Below, one piece after another: positions 17,348 through 61,010 of a DNA stretch of 64,000 nt (position 1 is its first letter; each line of letters begins with the position of its first letter). The notes beneath the pieces are model-generated. The model saw only the letters and a program-made list of their open reading frames with translations. It was not told where the DNA came from and ran no database searches. The stretch covers positions 1 through 64,000 of the forward strand of contig JAUVXW010000024.1 in NCBI GenBank assembly GCA_030603385.1, in the 5' to 3' direction. A program made the translations under genes and the position numbers. This stretch comes from Promethearchaeota archaeon (lineage in GTDB: Archaea; Asgardarchaeota; Lokiarchaeia; Sigyniarchaeales; SOKP01).

Positions 17348-17482
17348 TGCGCGAGGAGGGAAGTATTCAAACCGAAAAAAATCTTCGGAATTTTGAACCC
17401 CCGACCATCGAGATGTACATGTTAAATCATTGTAAATTTACACGGTGTGAGCGTGTCGTTATAGCCACTAAACCACTCGCGC
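17348..17482 (-). tRNA. tRNA-Val(CAC) with two non-canonical introns (17407-17438 at position 44/45; 17363-17392 at position 58/59)
   Basis: Acceptor GCGCGAG/CTCGCGC plus discriminator A, D arm GTTTAGTGGCTATAAC, anticodon arm ACACG-CTCACAC-CGTGT, T stem GGGGG/CCCTC; removing both inserts gives 73 nt with variable loop AGGTC and T loop TTCAATT. Confidence 0.9.
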
Positions 17483-20694: not shown

Positions 20695-20938
20695 ATGTTT
20701 TTTTTTGTTGAATAATTTAAAATTAGCCATGTCTTCTTTATTCCTCATTTATTCAAAGATTATCATTTTTTATATTCCTTTAATATGACTTCAAAAATCT
20801 CATCTGTTCGAGGAGTTTTTCTTCGAGGGGTAATACACTTTAAATTCATCCAAAACTTTGCTTAAATTGCAAAAAATTTAAATATTTAAAAATTAGATTC
20901 TTTATCTACGGAACTTTAAATTAATAATATTGAGAAAA

Positions 20939-21717
20939 ATGGATGTAAAACAAATGATACCACCAGAGGGAAAAGCTTTAGTATATGTTGTGCGTCCCAA
21001 TAGAGCTGGTGGATTAATTAAATTTAAATTTCATATTGATGGAAAACACGTAGGTACTACAAAAGCAAGACGGTTTCTTTATTCGGTATTAGATCCAGGT
21101 CCTCATCTATTTATGTCAAAATCAGAAAACGAAAGTGAAATGCAATTAAATCTTGAAGCTGGAAAAACATACTTTCTTAAACAGAAAATAAAACTAGGAG
21201 CTTTAAAAGCTAGGAATGAATTAATTCAGGTTAATGAAAGTGAAGGTCGAGAAATGTTGCAAAAATGCAGGTTAGGAGATCAAACTGAGAAGCTAATTAT
21301 CGCAAATACAAAACCTTGCATTAACTGTGGTAAGCAAATAGCAATAGATGTTAAATTCTGTACTCATTGTGGTGCTAGCCAGATAAAAGCTGAGGAGCCA
21401 ATTACCGCAAATACAAAACCTTGCATTCACTGTGGTAAACAAATAGCAATAGACGTTAAATTCTGTGCACATTGTGGTGCTAGCCAGATAAAAGATGAGG
21501 AGCCAATTACCGCAAATACAAAACCTTGTATTCACTGTGGTAAACAAATAGAAATAGAATTTAAATTTTGCCGGCATTGTGGTGCTAGCCAGATTGAAAC
21601 TGAGGAACAATTTACCGTAAATACAAAACCTTGTATTAACTGTGGAGAGAAATAGAATTAGATACTGAATTTTGTCCGCATTGTGGAGTTAAACAAATAC
21701 CGACTATAGACATGTAA
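20939..21717 (+). CDS. DUF2846-like domain plus 4 zinc-ribbon repeats; frameshift near 21650 truncates the last repeat (called ORF stops at 21655)
   Basis: GKALVYVVRP...LDPGPH...AGKTYF; CxxCG-x9-CxxCG repeats; shifted frame continues IELDTEFCPHCGVKQIPTIDM*. Confidence 0.75.
21295..21700 (+). repeat. 105-bp intragenic tandem repeat, about 4 copies
   Basis: CG(C/T)AAATACAAAACCTTG recurs at 21301, 21406, 21511 and 21616. Confidence 0.93.
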
Positions 21718-22084: not shown

Positions 22085-23177
22085 ATGGCTTATAACATCA
22101 AAGATGATATAAATGAAATAATAAATCGTATTAAAAAAGAAAATATCTCATTTAAAGACAGAAGAATTTTAATAACTGGGGGTGCTGGTTTTCTGGGCTC
22201 TTGGGTTTGTGATGTTCTAGTTGAGCAGGGGGCATACTGTATCTGTCTAGATAATTTATCTTCAGGTAAACCTGAAAATGTACAACATCTCATGGAAAAA
22301 GACAATTTTCGTTTTATCAATCATGATATATCTTATCCAATATATTTTGGAATGAGTTATCACCCTTTAGGCATATGTGTAGGGGACATTAAAAAAATTG
22401 ACATTGTAATGCATATGGCAAGTAGAGCCTCTCCATTTGAATTTCAAAAGGAACCAATATCTATTCTTAGAAGCAATACTCTAGGAACTCTGAATTCTTT
22501 AGGGATCGCAAAGTTCCATAATGCAATTTTCTTTTACACTAGCACATCTGAAGTTTATGGAAATCCACCGAAAGAAGCAATACCAACTCCAGAGACTTAT
22601 TTCGGGCACGTAAATCTTGCTTAAGGTTTCTTACAAGAACGCATACCCCGTAGGTCCCAGGAGTTGTTATGATGAATCTAAAAGAGCAGGGGAAGCTTTT
22701 ATAAAAGCTTATGAACTTCAACATCAAATGAGAACAAAGATAGTGAGAATTTTTAATACTTCTGGACCTAGAATACGCCATGGTCCCGAATTTGGAAGGG
22801 TAGTTCCAAATTTCATAAATCAAGCTTTGAATGATGAGGATATAACTATCTTTGGGGATGGATCACAAACGAGATCTTTTATTTATATAGTAGATGAGAT
22901 TGAAGGTATTCTAAAAATGGTTTATAAAGATGAAGCAAATGGAGAAGTTATTAATTTAGGCAATGATAAAGAATACACTATTTTAGAATTAGCCAATATT
23001 ATCAAAGATTTGACAAACTCTAACTCTAAAATAGTATTTAAACAATTACCTATAGATGATCCTGTACGTAGATGCCCTGATATTACCAAAGCAAAAAAAA
23101 TCTTAAATTGGAAACCTACAACTTCGTTGGAAGATGGACTTAAAAAAACTATTGCCTGGTTCAAAGATAATGGATGA
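22085..23177 (+). CDS. UDP-glucuronate decarboxylase-like extended SDR, join(22085..22613,22645..23177), 353 aa after removing a 31-nt insert
   Basis: ITGGAGFLGS, HMASRASP, TSTSEVYG in the first ORF; GPRSCYDESKR (YxxxK), RIFNT, GDGSQTRSF, DDPVRRCPDI in the second; the join restores YFGHVNPVGPRSCY. Confidence 0.9.
22614..22644 (+). other. Candidate BHB (tRNA-endonuclease-type) intron in an mRNA
   Basis: ATCTTGCTTAAGGTTTCTTACAAGAACGCAT; hairpin plus relaxed BHB; carries an in-frame TAA; excision restores the frame. Confidence 0.78.
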
Positions 23178-28439: not shown

Positions 28440-29621
28440 ATGGCTGAAAATAATAATATTTATCCTAAATTGGGAGTTTCCTCTAAAAAAGAAGATGTTC
28501 ATAAAGCCATTGAAAACTTAGATAAGGGACTCTTTCCAGGAGCATTTTGTAAAATTGTAGAAGATATAAATGGTCGAAAAGACTATTGCTCGATTTTCCA
28601 TGCAGATGGAGCAGGTACTAAATCAAGCTTAGCTTATATGTATTATAAAGAAACGGATGACATATCTATTTTCAGAGGCGTTGTCAGAGACGCTGTAATT
28701 ATGAATATAGATGATATTTTATGTGTAGGGGCAACTGGGAATATGTTCTTATCGAATAATCTTGGTAGAAATAAAACTTTTATTTCAGGAGAAATACTTT
28801 CTACAATTATTGATGAGTATTATACCTATAGCGAAAAACTGACTGATCTTGGTTTAAAGGTTATAGTGTGTGGTGGAGAAACCGCTGATGTAGGTGATGT
28901 AGTTAAAACTCTCATCCTAGATGCATCAGTATTCACTAGTATGAAGAGAGAGGATGTTATCAATGCTATTAATATTAAAAACGATGATGTAATAGTTGGA
29001 TTAGCAAGTTCAGGAAAAGCGTCCTATGAAGAGGAATATAATAGTGGAATAGGAAGTAATGGATTAACTTTAGCAAGGCATGGAATGCTTTCGCATGAGT
29101 ATTATACTAAGTATCCAGAATGTTATAATCAAGACTTAAATGAGAAACTTGTCTTTTTTGGTAGAAATAAATTAACAGATCCAATAAAAGGTTTAAATAT
29201 GAATATAGGAAAGGCGTTATTATCACCCACAAGAACGTACGCGCCAATATTAACAGAAATTTTAAAAAGATATAGAATAAAAATTCATGGGATCATTCAT
29301 AATACTGGAGGAGGTCAAACAAAGAACCTAAATTATGGTAAAGGTATCAAATATATCAAAAACAATCTATTCTCTCTACCTAAAATTTTTGAGATTATTC
29401 AGACTTCATCAGAAACTCAATGGAAAGAAATGTTCAGTGTTTTTAATATGGGTCATAGAATGGAATTGTATTGTGAAGAAGCTTTAGCAAAAGAAATTAT
29501 AAAAATTGCTAAGAAGTATAACGTCGAATCTAAAATTGTTGGATATTGTGAGAAATCACCATTGAAGGATAAAAATATTGTTGAGATTAATTCTGAATTT
29601 GGTTCATTCAAATATAGTTAA
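28440..29621 (+). CDS. purM: AIR synthase (long PurM type)
   Basis: HADGAGTKS, GGETADVGD, SNGLT, HNTGGG, FNMGHR. Confidence 0.9.
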   Translation: MAENNNIYPKLGVSSKKEDVHKAIENLDKGLFPGAFCKIVEDINGRKDYCSIFHADGAGTKSSLAYMYYKETDDISIFRGVVRDAVIMNIDDILCVGATGNMFLSNNLGRNKTFISGEILSTIIDEYYTYSEKLTDLGLKVIVCGGETADVGDVVKTLILDASVFTSMKREDVINAINIKNDDVIVGLASSGKASYEEEYNSGIGSNGLTLARHGMLSHEYYTKYPECYNQDLNEKLVFFGRNKLTDPIKGLNMNIGKALLSPTRTYAPILTEILKRYRIKIHGIIHNTGGGQTKNLNYGKGIKYIKNNLFSLPKIFEIIQTSSETQWKEMFSVFNMGHRMELYCEEALAKEIIKIAKKYNVESKIVGYCEKSPLKDKNIVEINSEFGSFKYS

Positions 29622-29632
29622 AGTTACTGAAA

Positions 29633-30583
29633 ATGACTAAAATTTTTGATGTTATTTGTATTGGAGCCGCCTTAGTTGACATGGTCGCTCAAATTGAAAG
29701 GTATCCAGAAAATGATGACGAGGTCTTTGTTTCTGATCTAAAATTATTATCTGGAGGGGCTGCTGCTAATACTGCTTATGCTTGTGCAAAATTAGGATTA
29801 AAAACTGCTTTTGTTGGAAAATTGGGGAGAGATGATGTATTTGGATTAAAAATAATAAATGATTTTAATGATGTAAAGGTAAATACTGAATTACTTAAAT
29901 ATTCAGATGAGTATAGAACTGGATCTGCCTATGTAGCATTGAATAAAGAAGGAGATAGAAGAATATATGCTCACAGTGGTGCTGCGAATTATCTTTCAAA
30001 AGAAGATATCAAAGAAAATGAACTATCTTTCACAAGTATCATCTTTTTAAGTAGCTTGAAAAATATAGAACCTTTTATTGAGGTTGCTATAATCGGAAAA
30101 AATAAAAAAATACCTGTTATTCTAAATCCGGGTATGTTAATAATTGAACAGGGGTTTATTAACATTAAAATCCTATTAGAAAAAATAGATATACTCATTA
30201 TATCTCAAAGAGAATTTGAAGTTCTTCTTGATCTTAAAAATAAAAAAATAAATCCTAATATGGTTAGGGAAGAAGCAGATAATTTGTTTTCTTTAGGAAT
30301 AAATGTTGTTGTAATAACTAAAGGTAAGAAAGGTGCCTTAATATTAACTCACGGAAATGCTGAGTTAATTCCACCTATTAAAACGAATAAAGTTGTAGAT
30401 ACTACAGGAGCAGGAGATGCGTTTTCAGCTGGTTTTATGTATGGATTTATTCAAAATCAAAGCTTTAAATTTGAAGATCTTAAACGAAATGTAAGAATAG
30501 GCAATTTTATAGCAGGTAAATGTATTGAGAAATTAGGCGCAAGAAATGGAATTCCCGAAGAGGAAGAAATAGAATTAGAATAA
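29633..30583 (+). CDS. PfkB/ribokinase family kinase
   Basis: GGAAANTA, DTTGAGDAF. Confidence 0.92.
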   Translation: MTKIFDVICIGAALVDMVAQIERYPENDDEVFVSDLKLLSGGAAANTAYACAKLGLKTAFVGKLGRDDVFGLKIINDFNDVKVNTELLKYSDEYRTGSAYVALNKEGDRRIYAHSGAANYLSKEDIKENELSFTSIIFLSSLKNIEPFIEVAIIGKNKKIPVILNPGMLIIEQGFINIKILLEKIDILIISQREFEVLLDLKNKKINPNMVREEADNLFSLGINVVVITKGKKGALILTHGNAELIPPIKTNKVVDTTGAGDAFSAGFMYGFIQNQSFKFEDLKRNVRIGNFIAGKCIEKLGARNGIPEEEEIELE

Positions 30584-40951: not shown

Positions 40952-42352
40952 TTATACTTTATAGCTTGCTCTTATAATTTTTCCATTTGAAATAATATTT
41001 TCATTATTTATTTCAGTTCCTCTTAAAAATACTTTCCAAATCTGAACAGCTGAATTACAATTTTCAAATGGGGAAAATTTTGCTTTTGTTTTGAAATTTT
41101 GAGATCTAATTGGAAATTTAGACACCTTATCGATTATCATTAAATCAGCATCATATCCTTCTTTAATAAAGCCTTTATTTTTTAAATTAAAAATTTTAGC
41201 AGGATTTTCAGAAGAAATTTTAACGAAATTTTCTAATGAAAGGTTGTAGTTAAAAACATTATTTAGTATCATTAATGGGTAAGTTTCAAAACCGGGGAAT
41301 CCAGAGGGTGCATCTAAATAATCTTGGGATTTTTCTTTTGAGGTGTGAGGTGCGTGATCAGTTCCAATTAAAGACACCTTGTCATCCTTAAGTTCATTAA
41401 ATAAAAATTGACTATGTTCAGAACTTCTTAAAGGAGGTAGTACTTTGCCATAATTATTTTCATTTAATATAATTTCGTGAGACAAAAGTAAGTGATGAGG
41501 AGTAATTTCAAAAGAAATTTTTAAGCTGTGTTCTGATTTTAATGCCTTTTGAATCGCTAAATAGCCTTGAATGCAACTTACGTGGCAAAAATGAACAATT
41601 GGATAATTTTTTGGGTTTAATCTATTAATGTTAATATGTTTTTTATAATTTTCAATTACAAACTCAATATACTTTTCCTCCATTTCGACTGGATTTAATC
41701 TATCGTGTAATTCTAAAGTATTATATTCTTGAACCTTGAATTCATTAAGAATTCGATCCTTTTCTTTATCGGAGATTGAGAAAGCAGCATGAATAAATAA
41801 CGGAATTTGGTATGTAGAAGAAATATTAAGAATTTTTTGAATATTTTCGGTATTATCCCAATCTATATCATTTAAAGGGTTAAGTGGGTAAATTTTAAAT
41901 CCAATTGCTCCTAATTCCATAATCTTTTTTATTTCATTCTCATCAATTTCTTTAGGTACACCTGCTATGAATCCAACATCCACATTAATATTATTTTGTG
42001 CTTTTTCCATCCATATGTTGACTTGTTTTCCTGAAATTGCGGGAGGTTTTGTATTTGGCATATTGAAAACTGTTGTTATTCCAGAATAAGCAGCTGCTTT
42101 GGTTCCGGTAAAAAATGTTTCTTTATCACTTTGTCCCATATCACGCAAGTGAGAATGAATATCAATTATCCCTGGTAAAATTAATTTATTTTTACAATCT
42201 AGTACCTTATTACCATCGTTCTTTTCAAATAATTTTTTATAATCCTTCTCATCAGGTGTATATTTAACTTCTACAATAATACCATTATTGATAAGAATAG
42301 CTCCTTTATGTACTAAACCTTCAGAAAAAATTTTTGCGTTTTTTAGAATCAT
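40952..42352 (-). CDS. pyrC: Dihydroorotase family amidohydrolase
   Basis: PGIIDIHSHLR, MPNTKP, HVS, TPHHL, TDHAPH. Confidence 0.88.
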   Translation of the reverse strand: MILKNAKIFSEGLVHKGAILINNGIIVEVKYTPDEKDYKKLFEKNDGNKVLDCKNKLILPGIIDIHSHLRDMGQSDKETFFTGTKAAAYSGITTVFNMPNTKPPAISGKQVNIWMEKAQNNINVDVGFIAGVPKEIDENEIKKIMELGAIGFKIYPLNPLNDIDWDNTENIQKILNISSTYQIPLFIHAAFSISDKEKDRILNEFKVQEYNTLELHDRLNPVEMEEKYIEFVIENYKKHININRLNPKNYPIVHFCHVSCIQGYLAIQKALKSEHSLKISFEITPHHLLLSHEIILNENNYGKVLPPLRSSEHSQFLFNELKDDKVSLIGTDHAPHTSKEKSQDYLDAPSGFPGFETYPLMILNNVFNYNLSLENFVKISSENPAKIFNLKNKGFIKEGYDADLMIIDKVSKFPIRSQNFKTKAKFSPFENCNSAVQIWKVFLRGTEINNENIISNGKIIRASYKV

Positions 42353-59761: not shown

Positions 59762-61010
59762 AGCTCAAAAAGACTTTATACAAGAAAAAGAAACAAAAAT
59801 AATTAAAGGGAATGTAGCAGTTGCGTATGCTGCAAAATCAGCCCGAGTGCAGGTAATCGGCGCATATCCAATAACACCACAAACAACAGTCGTTGAAAAA
59901 TTATCGGAATTTGCAGATAATGGAGAGATGCCAGGAACACAATATATTAAAGTAGAATCAGAACATAGTGCTTTTGCTGCGGTAGTTGGTGCTAGTAAAG
60001 CTGGAACGAGAACCTTTACCGCTACTGCAGGTCAGGGAATTTTTTATGCTCATGAAATGATTCATTGGGCTGCGGGTGCCAGACTTCCAATTGTTGTTGC
60101 CATTGCTTCTCGCGGTCCTGCTCCCCCATGGAATATTTGGGCTGATTTCACTGATGTGTTAAGCCAAAGAGACACAGGGTGGATGTCTTCTTTCTGTGCT
60201 TCTCATCAAGAAATATACGATGAAATTTTAATGTCGTATAAGGTTTGTGAAGATCACGAAGTTTTACTTCCAAAATTTGTCGCTTATGGTGGTTTTATCC
60301 TATCTCACACCTCAAAACCAGTGATAATCGAAGATCAAGAACTTGTAGATAGATTTTTACCTTCTTTACCAGGTGAAGAAGGGTGGCCACATATATGGAT
60401 GGATCCTAAAAGACCGATGATGTTTGGAAATCTTATAATGCCATCGGGATTTTATTATGAATTTAGAATGAAAATTCATGATGCTTTCATTCAAGTAAAA
60501 GAAAAAATTAAAAGTGTTGCTAAAGAGTTCGAACAAATGTTTGGGAGAAGTTACGGAAATGGTTTAATTCAAGAATACGAAATGGACGATGCTAAAGTCG
60601 GTGTTGTAATATATGGTGATTTAGCACTACAGATGGAACAAGCTGTTGATGATTTAAGGGAAGAAGGATATAAAGTAGGCATGATAAAATTAAGATATTT
60701 TCGACCATTTCCCGTGGAAGACATCATAAACTCCGTCAAAAAAGTCGATACTATAGGAGTTATTGATAGAGCAACGGCATTCGGATCACAAACTGGAGGA
60801 CCAGTCAGTTGTGAAGTTAAATCTGCGCTACATGAAATAAAAGATGCGCCAAATGTTCTACCTATTATTAATGGTTTAGGTGGAAGAGAAGTCTCTCTTG
60901 AACAGCAAAAAAAGCAATTAAAAATATTAGTTAAACTGAATGAAACTGGAGAGTTGCCAAAAGATATTATTCATGGAACTCTTTGGGATGGATTATTGGA
61001 GGTTGAATGA
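59754..61010 (+). CDS. porA: 2-oxoacid:ferredoxin oxidoreductase alpha subunit
   Basis: [24 protein letters not shown]. Confidence 0.93.

What the first reader, a model, noticed from the sequence alone, without database searches (positions are those of the whole stretch)
22594..22656. Candidate bulge-helix-bulge intron inside a protein-coding gene of an Asgard archaeon
Seen in sequence: the UDP-glucuronate-decarboxylase-like gene is broken in the middle of a conserved motif (..TYFGHVN | PVGPRSCYDESKR) by exactly 31 extra nt containing an in-frame TAA. Both halves are otherwise intact. The RNA folds as follows. Outer exon-exon stems: GACUUA(22594-99)/UAGGUC(22651-56) and CGGG(22603-06)/CCCG(22647-50). 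Central helix: ACGU(22608-11)/ACGC(22639-42), 3 pairs plus an A.C mismatch, with a further C.C mismatch next to the 3' bulge. 3-nt bulges: AAA(22612-14) and AUA(22643-45). Intron hairpin: UCUUG-CU-UAAG-GUUU-CUUA-CAAGA. Established: archaeal splicing endonuclease (EndA) cuts after the 2nd nt of each BHB bulge. Applying that rule removes 22614-22644 and gives GTA AAC CCC = V-N-P, a 353-aa ORF with the family motif restored. There is no target-site duplication, and the flanking codons (GGG CAC, CCC GTA GGT CCC) are unusually GC-rich, as expected if pairing is selected. Archaeal mRNA introns are rare (the classic case is crenarchaeal cbf5), and I know of none described in an Asgard metabolic gene. 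Inference: EndA/RtcB-type mRNA splicing operates in this lineage and may gate nucleotide-sugar synthesis, analogous to non-spliceosomal HAC1/XBP1 splicing.
Basis: partly seen in the sequence, partly recalled or inferred. Interest (0 to 1): 0.95.

Follow-up and report, generated by a model that had tools for sequence, protein, structure and literature searches.

The report
tRNA-type mini-intron in Asgard sugar-enzyme gene
A 31-base insert shaped like a tRNA intron splits the UDP-glucuronate-decarboxylase-like gene of this Asgard (Promethearchaeota) archaeon, and comparison with 14 related species shows that it is a conserved intron almost certainly cut out of the mRNA by the tRNA-splicing enzymes, a kind of splicing that the papers I could search document for only one other archaeal protein gene (cbf5).

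Summary
The SDR/UXS-like gene at 22085-23177 (+) is broken by 31 nt (22614-22644). Removing them restores ...YFGHV-N-PVGPRSCYDESKR and a 353-aa ORF.

The interpretation as a bulge-helix-bulge (BHB) mRNA intron is strongly supported by comparative evidence:
- Of 129 orthologues in the same family, most are uninterrupted, with exactly one Asn codon at this site.
- 14 species in 4 genera carry a homologous 30-31-nt insert at the identical position.
- In these 14, both exons stay intact under strong purifying selection (dN/dS 0.03-0.09, synonymous sites saturated). The insert itself stays 71-94% identical, except in the two genus-g17 species (39-52%, or not comparable).
- Helices show compensatory changes, including an exon-intron pair.
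- 13 of 14 sequences fold on their own into hBHBh'.
- The exon junction falls after the 2nd nt of each 3-nt bulge.

The genome encodes two EndA paralogues (one lacks the catalytic His) and RtcB. It also carries ~30-nt BHB introns in tRNA-Val, rnhB and psmA.

The proposed HAC1-like regulatory role has no support.

This scan had already reported similar introns on other DNA of this genome and in other archaea.

The parts
22085..22613 (+). Exon 1 of the UDP-glucuronate-decarboxylase-like (extended SDR) gene. It holds the Rossmann GGAGFLGS motif and ends ...TYFGHV plus the first A of the Asn codon.
   Evidence: ORF and translation. Pfam Epimerase profile 1-126 and GDP_Man_Dehyd 1-140. 74-96% aa identity to the N-halves of the other intron-bearing family orthologues and 77-88% to the intron-less same-genus orthologues scored.
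22614..22644 (+). 31-nt BHB micro-intron (equivalently 22615-22645). It contains an in-frame TAA at 22622-24.
   Evidence: Absent from most orthologues, which have a single AAT/AAC codon here. A homologous 30-31-nt insert lies at the same site in 13 other species. Unique in the genome. 71-94% identical between species whose synonymous sites are saturated.
22645..23177 (+). Exon 2. It starts with the last two bases of the Asn codon, then PVGPRSCYDESKR (catalytic Tyr/Lys region) to the stop codon.
   Evidence: Translation. Pfam Epimerase 135-240 and GDP_Man_Dehyd 146-332. Best solved relatives are human UDP-glucuronic acid decarboxylase 1 (4gll, 2b69; E 1.4e-45), aligned from residue 141 or 163.
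22608..22611 (+). 5' strand of the central BHB helix (ACGU, end of exon 1). It pairs with 22639-22642.
   Evidence: Pairs 22609-41, 22610-40 and 22611-39 are kept in 13/13 distinct sequences, including CG->UA in G058. 22608-42 is A.C in 8 and A.G in 1 of 13 distinct sequences, and A-U in 4.
22612..22614 (+). 5' three-nt bulge (AAA). The 5' splice site lies after its 2nd nt (22613|22614).
   Evidence: The exon junction is unambiguous in G004 and G059, where the third bulge base is U. Unpaired in the MFE folds.
22615..22638 (+). Inner intron hairpin (h'): UCUUG/CAAGA plus UAAG/CUUA with loop GUUU.
   Evidence: GC->AU compensatory change at 22619-22634 in genus g22. AU<->GC at 22624-22631.
22639..22642 (+). 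3' strand of the central helix (ACGC, intron 3' end).
22643..22645 (+). 3' three-nt bulge (AUA). The 3' splice site lies after its 2nd nt (22644|22645).
22594..22606 (+). 5' strand of the exon-exon outer helix (GACUUAU 22594-22600 and GGG 22604-06).
   Evidence: MFE and RNAalifold. Pairs are kept in 12-14 of 14 sequences. AU->GC compensatory change in G102. Intron-bearing alleles score 5-6/6 pairs in 13 of 14, against 1-5/6 in all but one of the 19 intron-less alleles scored.
22646..22656 (+). 3' strand of the exon-exon outer helix (CCC 22646-48; GUAGGUC 22650-56).

Best explanation
The 31 nt at 22614-22644 are an archaeal bulge-helix-bulge (BHB, tRNA-type) intron inside the pre-mRNA of a UDP-glucuronate-decarboxylase-like SDR gene.

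Proposed mechanism:
1. In the transcript, the last bases of exon 1 (ACGU) pair with the 3' end of the intron. This forms a short central helix flanked by two 3-nt bulges on opposite strands.
2. An exon1-exon2 helix closes the motif on the outside, and an intron hairpin closes it on the inside.
3. The splicing endonuclease is probably a heterotetramer of the two EndA paralogues encoded on contigs C44 and C9. It cuts after the 2nd nt of each bulge.
4. RtcB (contig C39) joins the exons to give GUA-AAC-CCC (V-N-P) and a 353-aa enzyme. The intron is released, probably as a circle.
5. Unspliced mRNA would give only a 179-aa fragment without the catalytic Tyr/Lys.

History: the intron is old, being shared by four genera of the family. 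It has been lost precisely, or exchanged by allelic recombination, several times.

Shown: the anatomy, the conservation, the covariation, selection on the spliced ORF, and the presence of the enzymes. Inferred: the cleavage and ligation themselves.
For: 1. Empty sites. In intron-less orthologues, N-half and C-half matches are separated by exactly one codon (AAT/AAC). In G000 they are separated by 34 nt.
2. Recurrence. 129 of 135 family genomes have the gene. 14 species in 4 genera carry a 31-nt (G059: 30-nt) insert at the identical site. They come from independent MAG assemblies, e.g. CSMAG_2743 and binchicken_co150_570.
3. Intact genes. All 14 spliced CDSs are open and a multiple of 3. Pairwise dN/dS is 0.03-0.09 with dS above 1 or saturated. 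Between four very close genus-g22 genes (dS 0.11-0.15) it is 0.19-0.29. The intron stays 71-94% identical except in the two g17 species.
4. Structure. 87.9% of cells are paired against 30-51% when partners are slid. No shuffle of 500 reaches the observed pairing or covariation score. Compensatory changes occur at 4 pairs. One is exon His CAC->CAU with intron G->A in G058; another is exon-exon AU->GC in G102. RNAalifold recovers the same architecture. 13 of 14 sequences fold alone into hBHBh', and G004, G080 and G059 have a perfect 4-bp helix with two 3-nt bulges.
5. Splice sites. In G004 and G059 the only deletion that restores Asn cuts after the 2nd nt of each bulge.
6. Exon co-adaptation. 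Counts are intron-bearing versus intron-less alleles:
   - His CAC 12/14 vs 4/42
   - Val GTA 14/14 vs 21/42
   - Asn AAC 12/14 vs 10/42
   - Thr ACY 12/14 vs 3/42
7. Machinery. The genome has two EndA paralogues with N and C domains. One is most similar to the chain-B subunit of the solved entries 3p1z and 3ajv; the other lacks the triad His in the pairwise alignment. RtcB is full length. Asgard EndA is reported as (alpha-beta)2 with the L1 loop that gives broad specificity (PMC5829648).
8. Same class elsewhere in the genome. tRNA-Val(CAC) lies 5 kb upstream and is found only after two ~30-nt inserts are removed. rnhB has a 30-nt insert (GIDEAGR|GPVLGPL) with UGGU/ACCA and bulges AGA and AAA. 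psmA is split in three pieces.
Against: - No RNA evidence.
- In G000 the central helix has only 3 Watson-Crick pairs plus A.C. C22607 has no partner, so the motif is relaxed rather than canonical.
- The single-sequence fold is only z = -1.8.
- The register of the inner part of the outer helix is ambiguous because of the CCCC run (vs 30).
- One of the 14 (G075) does not give the BHB as its MFE fold.
- The 14 carriers fall in about 6 clades and are not independent, so the shuffle statistics overstate.
- The alpha/beta assignment of the EndA paralogues rests on sequence alone.
Confidence: 0.88

Rival explanations
1. Pseudogene: a random 31-nt insertion inactivated the gene, and the BHB-like fold is a coincidence.
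For: The gene is formally broken by a frameshift plus an in-frame TAA. The single-sequence fold is only marginally better than shuffles. A second SDR paralogue exists in the genome (C54:11663-12166, 34% identity).
Against: The same insert persists in 14 species of 4 genera while synonymous sites are saturated. Both exons have no further lesion, and dN/dS is 0.03-0.09. The insert is far more conserved than synonymous sites and shows compensatory pair changes. A real lesion looks different: the copy in G060 has lost the GxxGxxG region with a frameshift.
Confidence: 0.02
2. Translational bypass: the insert stays in the mRNA and the ribosome hops over it, as in phage T4 gene 60 or the mitochondrial 'byp' elements of Magnusiomyces.
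For: The size (about 30 nt), a stop codon early in the insert and a hairpin are also features of bypass elements (my knowledge of those systems, not tested here).
Against: Bypass needs matching take-off and landing codons. No codon next to CCC matches GUA or AAU in most carriers. The only GUA...GUA pair (G004, G080, G075, G059) would give V-Y-P instead of the invariant V-N-P. The covarying exon-intron central helix and the exon-exon helix have no role in bypass, but they are exactly what EndA needs.
Confidence: 0.03
3. Assembly or sequencing artefact, or a small mobile DNA element (MITE-like) caught in one MAG.
For: All the genomes are metagenome-assembled. One apparent interruption of the same gene (G142) did turn out to be a scaffold gap of Ns with duplicated flanks.
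Against: The insert recurs at the same nucleotide in 14 independently assembled species, with sequence divergence. There is no second copy in the 3.89-Mb genome, no terminal inverted repeats beyond the hairpin and no target-site duplication.
Confidence: 0.01
4. Split enzyme: the two halves are translated separately (the second from TTG 22617) and assemble without splicing.
For: An in-frame TTG lies at 22617 in G000.
Against: That codon is TTA in genus g22, and no start is conserved among carriers. The break lies between beta-strand and catalytic-Tyr elements of a single Rossmann-type domain. It would not explain conservation of the BHB or of the exact one-codon spacing.
Confidence: 0.01
5. A true BHB intron whose removal is regulated, so that splicing acts as a switch for UDP-xylose / nucleotide-sugar synthesis.
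For: Unspliced mRNA cannot give active enzyme, so any change in EndA/RtcB activity would in principle change enzyme output (inference only).
Against: There is no sensor, no condition-dependent data and no conserved partner. Sister species (G019, G002, G012, G104, G066) have the same gene without the intron. Similar introns sit in unrelated housekeeping genes and in tRNAs. Both points fit a constitutive, selectively near-neutral intron better.
Confidence: 0.05

Closest known systems
BHB intron in the cbf5 (pseudouridine synthase) pre-mRNA of Crenarchaeota (Watanabe 2002; Yoshinari 2006; Yokobori 2009, PMC2738675)
   Same: A short intron inside a protein-coding sequence, defined by a bulge-helix-bulge motif at the exon-intron boundaries. 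Hetero-oligomeric (alpha-beta) EndA is present. The distribution among relatives is patchy and read as gain and loss (PMC2738675 title and abstract).
   Different: A different host gene (a nucleotide-sugar SDR enzyme, not an RNA-modification enzyme) and a different phylum (Promethearchaeota/Asgard, not Desulfurococcales/Sulfolobales). Here splicing is inferred, whereas for cbf5 it was shown by RT-PCR and in vitro cleavage. In this genome it is one of several protein genes with such inserts (rnhB, psmA).
Non-canonical BHB introns of archaeal tRNA genes, especially the intron-rich tRNA genes of Asgard archaea (PMC11291895; bioRxiv 10.64898/2026.10.13.758758)
   Same: The same size class (about 30 nt), the same hBHBh' architecture and cut positions, and insertion at arbitrary positions. 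The same genome has tRNA-Val(CAC) with two such introns 5 kb away.
   Different: The host is an mRNA, so the exon strands of the helices must also encode protein. This shows as synonymous-codon bias, and even a Ser->Thr preference, in intron-bearing alleles. The papers I read describe tRNA introns only.
HAC1/XBP1 unconventional mRNA splicing (IRE1 + tRNA ligase/RtcB)
   Same: Spliceosome-independent endonuclease cuts at two small stem-loop sites in an mRNA, with RtcB-type ligation in metazoa. Removal of a short intron changes the reading frame (PMC13149111).
   Different: A different nuclease (IRE1 kinase-RNase, not EndA) and a different RNA motif. HAC1/XBP1 splicing is regulated by a stress sensor, and there is no sign of regulation here.
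Translational bypass elements (T4 gene 60; mitochondrial byps)
   Same: A short stop-containing hairpin insert inside a conserved coding sequence.
   Different: There are no matching take-off and landing codons. The helices involve exon-intron and exon-exon pairing with covariation.

Membership tests
Archaeal BHB (EndA-type) intron | hBHBh' motif: two 3-nt bulges on opposite strands, separated by a 4-bp helix and flanked by an outer and an inner helix | tested here: met
   MFE folds of 13 of 14 carriers give this architecture. It is canonical (4 bp, 3+3 nt) in G004, G080 and G059, and relaxed (3 bp + A.C) in G000 and most others.
Archaeal BHB (EndA-type) intron | Cuts at symmetric positions in the two bulges (after the 2nd nt) must give the functional product | tested here: met
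   Only this deletion restores V-N-P. It is unambiguous in G004 and G059. All 14 spliced CDSs are open.
Archaeal BHB (EndA-type) intron | Structure, not sequence, is conserved (covariation) | tested here: met
   87.9% of cells are paired against 30-51% slid. There are 4 pairs with double changes, including exon-intron CG->UA and 5 pairs in RNAalifold. Carriers are related, so the statistics are descriptive.
Archaeal BHB (EndA-type) intron | The host encodes the splicing endonuclease and an RtcB-type ligase | tested here: met
   PF01974 hits at C44:18795-19019 and C9:36254-36502; RtcB at C39:18568-19875.
Archaeal BHB (EndA-type) intron | The intron is absent from mature RNA (spliced junction, free or circular intron) | not testable with these tools
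No spliced-product protein is in the protein collection.
Archaeal BHB (EndA-type) intron | Cleavage of the motif by purified EndA | not testable with these tools
   Bench experiment.
UDP-glucuronate decarboxylase (UXS) / extended SDR | Rossmann GxxGxxG, catalytic YxxxK, and full-length similarity to characterised UXS | tested here: met
   GGAGFLGS in exon 1 and SCYDESKR in exon 2. Pfam Epimerase and GDP_Man_Dehyd are covered contiguously. Best solved relatives are human UXS1 (4gll, 2b69; E 1.4e-45). Sources name orthologues 'UDP-glucuronic acid decarboxylase family protein'. Activity was not tested.
Pseudogene | Relaxed selection and accumulation of further lesions | tested here: not met
   dN/dS is 0.03-0.09 at saturated dS, and no other stop or frameshift occurs in the 14 carriers.
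Translational bypass element | Matching take-off and landing codons flanking the gap | tested here: not met
   No conserved matching codon pair gives V-N-P.
MITE / insertion element | Multiple genomic copies and a target-site duplication | tested here: not met
   There is a single full-length copy in 3.89 Mb. The best other match is 16 nt at 94% identity (longest exact match 14 nt). No duplication is seen at the borders.

The most novel reading that the evidence does not exclude
This intron is one member of a genome-wide population of ~30-nt BHB micro-introns in Promethearchaeia. On this reading the introns colonise tRNA and protein-coding transcripts alike, persist for long periods, and are gained or lost between species by allelic homologous recombination (or by reversal of the endonuclease/ligase reaction followed by reverse transcription). 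The closest archaeal relatives of eukaryotes would then routinely need protein-enzyme mRNA splicing to express housekeeping and metabolic genes.
Probability: 0.35. Interest if true: 0.9.

Novelty: new member of a known kind. Interest (0 to 1): 0.75.

Why it matters
In the literature I could search, cbf5 is the only case of a coding sequence interrupted by a tRNA-type intron in archaea. The papers on Asgard introns deal with tRNA genes only.

This locus adds several things:
- It is a metabolic gene in Asgard archaea with unusually good comparative support: 14 carriers, empty sites in sister species, exon-intron covariation, a probable recent precise loss, and a recombination breakpoint beside the intron.
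- It shows that gene callers split or mis-annotate such genes.
- It shows that coding sequence can be shaped by the need to form a splicing motif.
- Together with the rnhB, psmA and tRNA-Val cases in the same genome, it shows that protein-enzyme mRNA splicing may be routine in this lineage. That bears on how introns and exon-junction constraints could exist before the spliceosome.

It also offers a simple test system: one 70-nt substrate, two EndA subunits and RtcB.

Tried and rejected

2. Indirect search for spliced transcripts. I searched the 5.8-billion-protein collection for full-length proteins matching the N-half.
   - The best full-length hits are only 88% identical to G000.
   - None equals the spliced product of any carrier. 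The nearest are 94.9% to G067 and 92% to G073.
   - The two nearest Logan contigs are syntenic, intron-less alleles without the pairing-biased exon codons.

3. Genome-wide structural scan. I required BHB pattern + inner and outer helix + fusion of two >=70-codon frames, and compared the result with a decoy pairing rule.
   - There was no enrichment: 357 real against 454 decoy sites, and the same at every stringency.
   - Tightly packed adjacent genes dominate the hits.
   - The two best other hits in this window are POR alpha/beta and an AIRS-like gene followed by a PfkB kinase, not introns.
   - The scan also missed rnhB and psmA. I therefore give no census.

4. Repeat or MITE: blastn-short of the insert finds no second copy.

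5. Rfam: nothing at the locus.

6. A 'second intron' in G142 is a run of Ns with duplicated flanks. The short frame in G060 is a deletion of the Rossmann motif. G072 and G056 are contig ends.

7. Translational bypass and a split enzyme were considered and rejected (see rival explanations).
Full report
**Observation**

An ORF starting at 22085 encodes the N-terminal half of an extended short-chain dehydrogenase/epimerase and stops at TAA 22622-24. The C-terminal half continues in another frame to 23177.

- The two halves cover contiguous parts of the Pfam profiles: Epimerase 1-126 and 135-240; GDP_Man_Dehyd 1-140 and 146-332.
- The closest solved relatives of the C-half are human UDP-glucuronic acid decarboxylase 1 (4gll, 2b69; E 1.4e-45).
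- Deleting 22614-22644 gives CAC GTA AAC CCC (H-V-N-P) and a 353-codon ORF.
- Deleting 22615-22645 gives the same product, because both border bases are A.
- The minimum-energy fold of 22590-22660 is an outer exon-exon helix, a short central helix, 3-nt bulge AAA, an inner hairpin and a 3' bulge.
- In this species the central helix has only three Watson-Crick pairs plus A.C. The fold is only weakly better than shuffled sequence (z -1.8; 11 of 200 shuffles), so the single sequence does not prove anything.
- The insert has no second copy in the 3.89-Mb, 30.7% G+C genome.

**Comparative evidence**

The gene is present in 129 of 135 genomes of the same family. In the uninterrupted orthologues, tblastn matches of the two halves are separated by exactly one codon, AAT or AAC.

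Fourteen species carry an insert of 31 nt (30 nt in G059) at exactly this codon:
- genus g1: G000, G004, G080, G075, G073
- genus g22: G122, G124, G118, G113, G102
- genus g21: G069, G067
- genus g17: G058, G059

Two of them can be matched to named public MAGs from different projects (CSMAG_2743, binchicken_co150_570). The relatives are labelled Promethearchaeota/Promethearchaeia. This excludes an assembly artefact.

After in-silico splicing, all 14 genes are open and in frame.
- Between carriers with substantial synonymous divergence (dS above about 0.6), dN/dS is 0.03-0.09, and synonymous sites are largely saturated (pS 0.6-0.8). Between four very close g22 genes (dS 0.11-0.15) it is 0.19-0.29.
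- The intron remains 71-94% identical, for example 94% between G000 and G075 at pS 0.63. The exceptions are the two g17 introns: G058 is 39-52% identical to the others, and the 30-nt G059 intron could not be compared.
- The gene is therefore functional in all these lineages, and the insert itself is under constraint. This excludes a pseudogene.

**Structure and splice sites**

With partners slid by 1-3 columns the figure is 30-51%. No shuffle of 500 reaches the observed pairing or covariation score.

Double (compensatory) changes occur at:
- 22619-22634 (GC to AU in genus g22);
- 22624-22631 (AU/GC);
- 22609-22641 (exon His codon CAC to CAU together with intron G to A in G058);
- 22595-22655 (exon-exon AU to GC in G102).

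The outermost central pair 22608-22642 is A.C in most carriers but A-U in G004, G080, G075 and G059.

RNAalifold finds the same architecture and prefers GGG 22604-06 with CCC 22646-48 for the inner part of the outer helix. Folded alone, 13 of 14 sequences give hBHBh'. G004, G080 and G059 show the textbook form: a 4-bp helix and two 3-nt bulges.

In G004 and G059 the third base of the 5' bulge is U. The only deletion that restores Asn then cuts after the second base of each bulge, which is the canonical EndA position.

**Exons adapted to the motif**

Codon counts, intron-bearing versus intron-less alleles of the family:

| Codon | Intron-bearing | Intron-less |
|---|---|---|
| His CAC | 12/14 | 4/42 |
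| Val GTA | 14/14 | 21/42 |
| Asn AAC | 12/14 | 10/42 |
| Thr ACY at -6 | 12/14 | 3/42 |
| Val+2 GTA | 13/14 | 13/42 |

The outer helix GAGACY-UA/UAGGUC has 5-6 of 6 pairs in 13 of 14 carriers, against 1-5 of 6 in all but one of the 19 intron-less alleles scored. The carriers fall in about six clades, so these counts are descriptive, but they go the way pairing predicts.

**History**

- On a maximum-likelihood tree of the spliced genes, intron presence needs at least 6-7 changes.
- G104 has no intron. It is nested among four nearly identical intron-bearing g22 genes and still has the full exon-exon complementarity, which fits a recent precise loss.
- The G000 gene is a mosaic. Up to about 40-50 nt downstream of the intron it is 86-100% identical to intron-bearing G073. 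From there on it is 94-100% identical to intron-less G019.
- Allelic recombination therefore moves this region between species, and it can explain the patchy distribution.

**Machinery and context**

The genome has two EndA paralogues of about 200 aa, each with the N and C endonuclease domains.
- The C44 protein is most similar to the chain-B subunit of the solved entries 3p1z and 3ajv.
- The C9 protein has no His at the triad position in the pairwise alignment. This fits an (alpha-beta)2 enzyme, the type reported for Asgard archaea with the L1 loop that confers broad specificity (PMC5829648).
- RtcB is full length.

Other introns of the same class in this genome:
- Five kb upstream, ARAGORN finds tRNA-Val(CAC) only after inserts of 30 and 32 nt are removed. 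Rfam sees it below threshold.
- rnhB (C17:18113-18742) carries a 30-nt in-frame TAA-containing insert. Its removal restores GIDEAGR-GPVLGPL, with central helix UGGU/ACCA and bulges AGA and AAA.
- psmA (C17:41819-42434) is in three pieces with 32- and 29-nt inserts.

Earlier notes of this scan list further cases in this genome and others. I used them as leads, and I rechecked only rnhB, psmA and tRNA-Val.

**Rivals**

- Pseudogene and artefact are excluded as above.
- A mobile element is unlikely: single copy, no target duplication.
- Translational bypass is unlikely: no conserved take-off/landing pair yields V-N-P, and the covarying exon-intron and exon-exon helices have no role in hopping.
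- A split enzyme is unlikely: the TTG at 22617 is not conserved.
- A regulatory, HAC1-like role cannot be excluded, but nothing speaks for it. Close relatives lack the intron, and similar introns sit in unrelated genes.

**What is missing**

A search for proteins equal to a spliced product found none. My structural genome scan could not separate introns from adjacent gene pairs. Splicing is therefore inferred, not observed, and I cannot say how many coding genes of this genome carry such introns.

**Comparison and novelty**

The mechanism is that of the cbf5 pre-mRNA intron of Crenarchaeota (PMC2738675) and of non-canonical tRNA introns. This locus passes every membership test that can be made in silico.

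In the searchable literature, only cbf5 is cited for coding-sequence BHB introns, and the Asgard intron papers treat tRNA genes only. I classify the locus as a new member of a known kind. Its interest is raised by the lineage, the quality of the comparative signal and the evidence that it belongs to a wider set.

Noticed in passing
window 17348-17482 (-): tRNA-Val(CAC) is interrupted by two ~30-nt inserts (17363-17392 and 17407-17438) at non-canonical positions. ARAGORN finds the gene only after both are removed. Rfam scores the unspliced region below threshold (25.6 bits against 29).
   Followed up: yes
window about 22085-23177; breakpoint near 22690: The G000 gene is a recombinant mosaic. 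The 5' ~600 nt (exon 1, intron and the first ~40-50 nt of exon 2) are 86-100% identical to intron-bearing G073. The rest is 94-100% identical to intron-less G019.
   Followed up: partly
L051 (G104:C75:59195-60385): This intron-less allele is nested among four nearly identical intron-bearing genes. It still has the full exon-exon complementarity (GAGACCTA...TAGGTC), which looks like a recent precise intron loss.
   Followed up: partly
G000:C17:18113-18742 (L070): rnhB has a 30-nt in-frame insert with TAA between GIDEAGR and GPVLGPL. Its BHB is canonical (UGGU/ACCA, bulges AGA and AAA) but the outer helix is weak.
   Followed up: yes
G000:C17:41819-42434 (L078, L079): The proteasome alpha-type gene is split in three pieces. 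A 32-nt insert at 41993-42024 (GUAC/GUAC, bulges UAA and UAA) restores ...ADARVLIDRARV.... A second insert of about 29 nt lies near 42135-42165.
   Followed up: partly
G000:C39:2115-2300 (L071): The Elf1 zinc-ribbon match starts only at profile position 15, and the N-terminus (MGRRKRK...FTCPD) lies in another frame just upstream. My strict 4-bp filter did not pick the proposed borders.
   Followed up: partly
L048 (G060:C79:7540-8900) and L047 (G142:C1:34700-36050): Two other interrupted orthologues are not introns. G060 lacks the GxxGxxG region and has a frameshift (a real lesion or a misassembly). G142 has a run of Ns with duplicated flanks (a scaffold gap).
   Followed up: yes
window 20930-21655 (+): The upstream gene encodes a DUF2846 domain followed by four near-identical zinc-ribbon repeats (NTKPCI[NH]CGKQI...CGASQI). 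In syntenic contigs of relatives (L160, L161) the upstream neighbour is instead an Arf/Ras-family small GTPase.
   Followed up: no
window 60979-61008 and 29620-29651 (+): These BHB-like folds would fuse long frames, but they lie between separate genes (POR alpha/beta; an AIRS-like gene and a PfkB kinase). They are false positives of a structure-only scan.
   Followed up: yes
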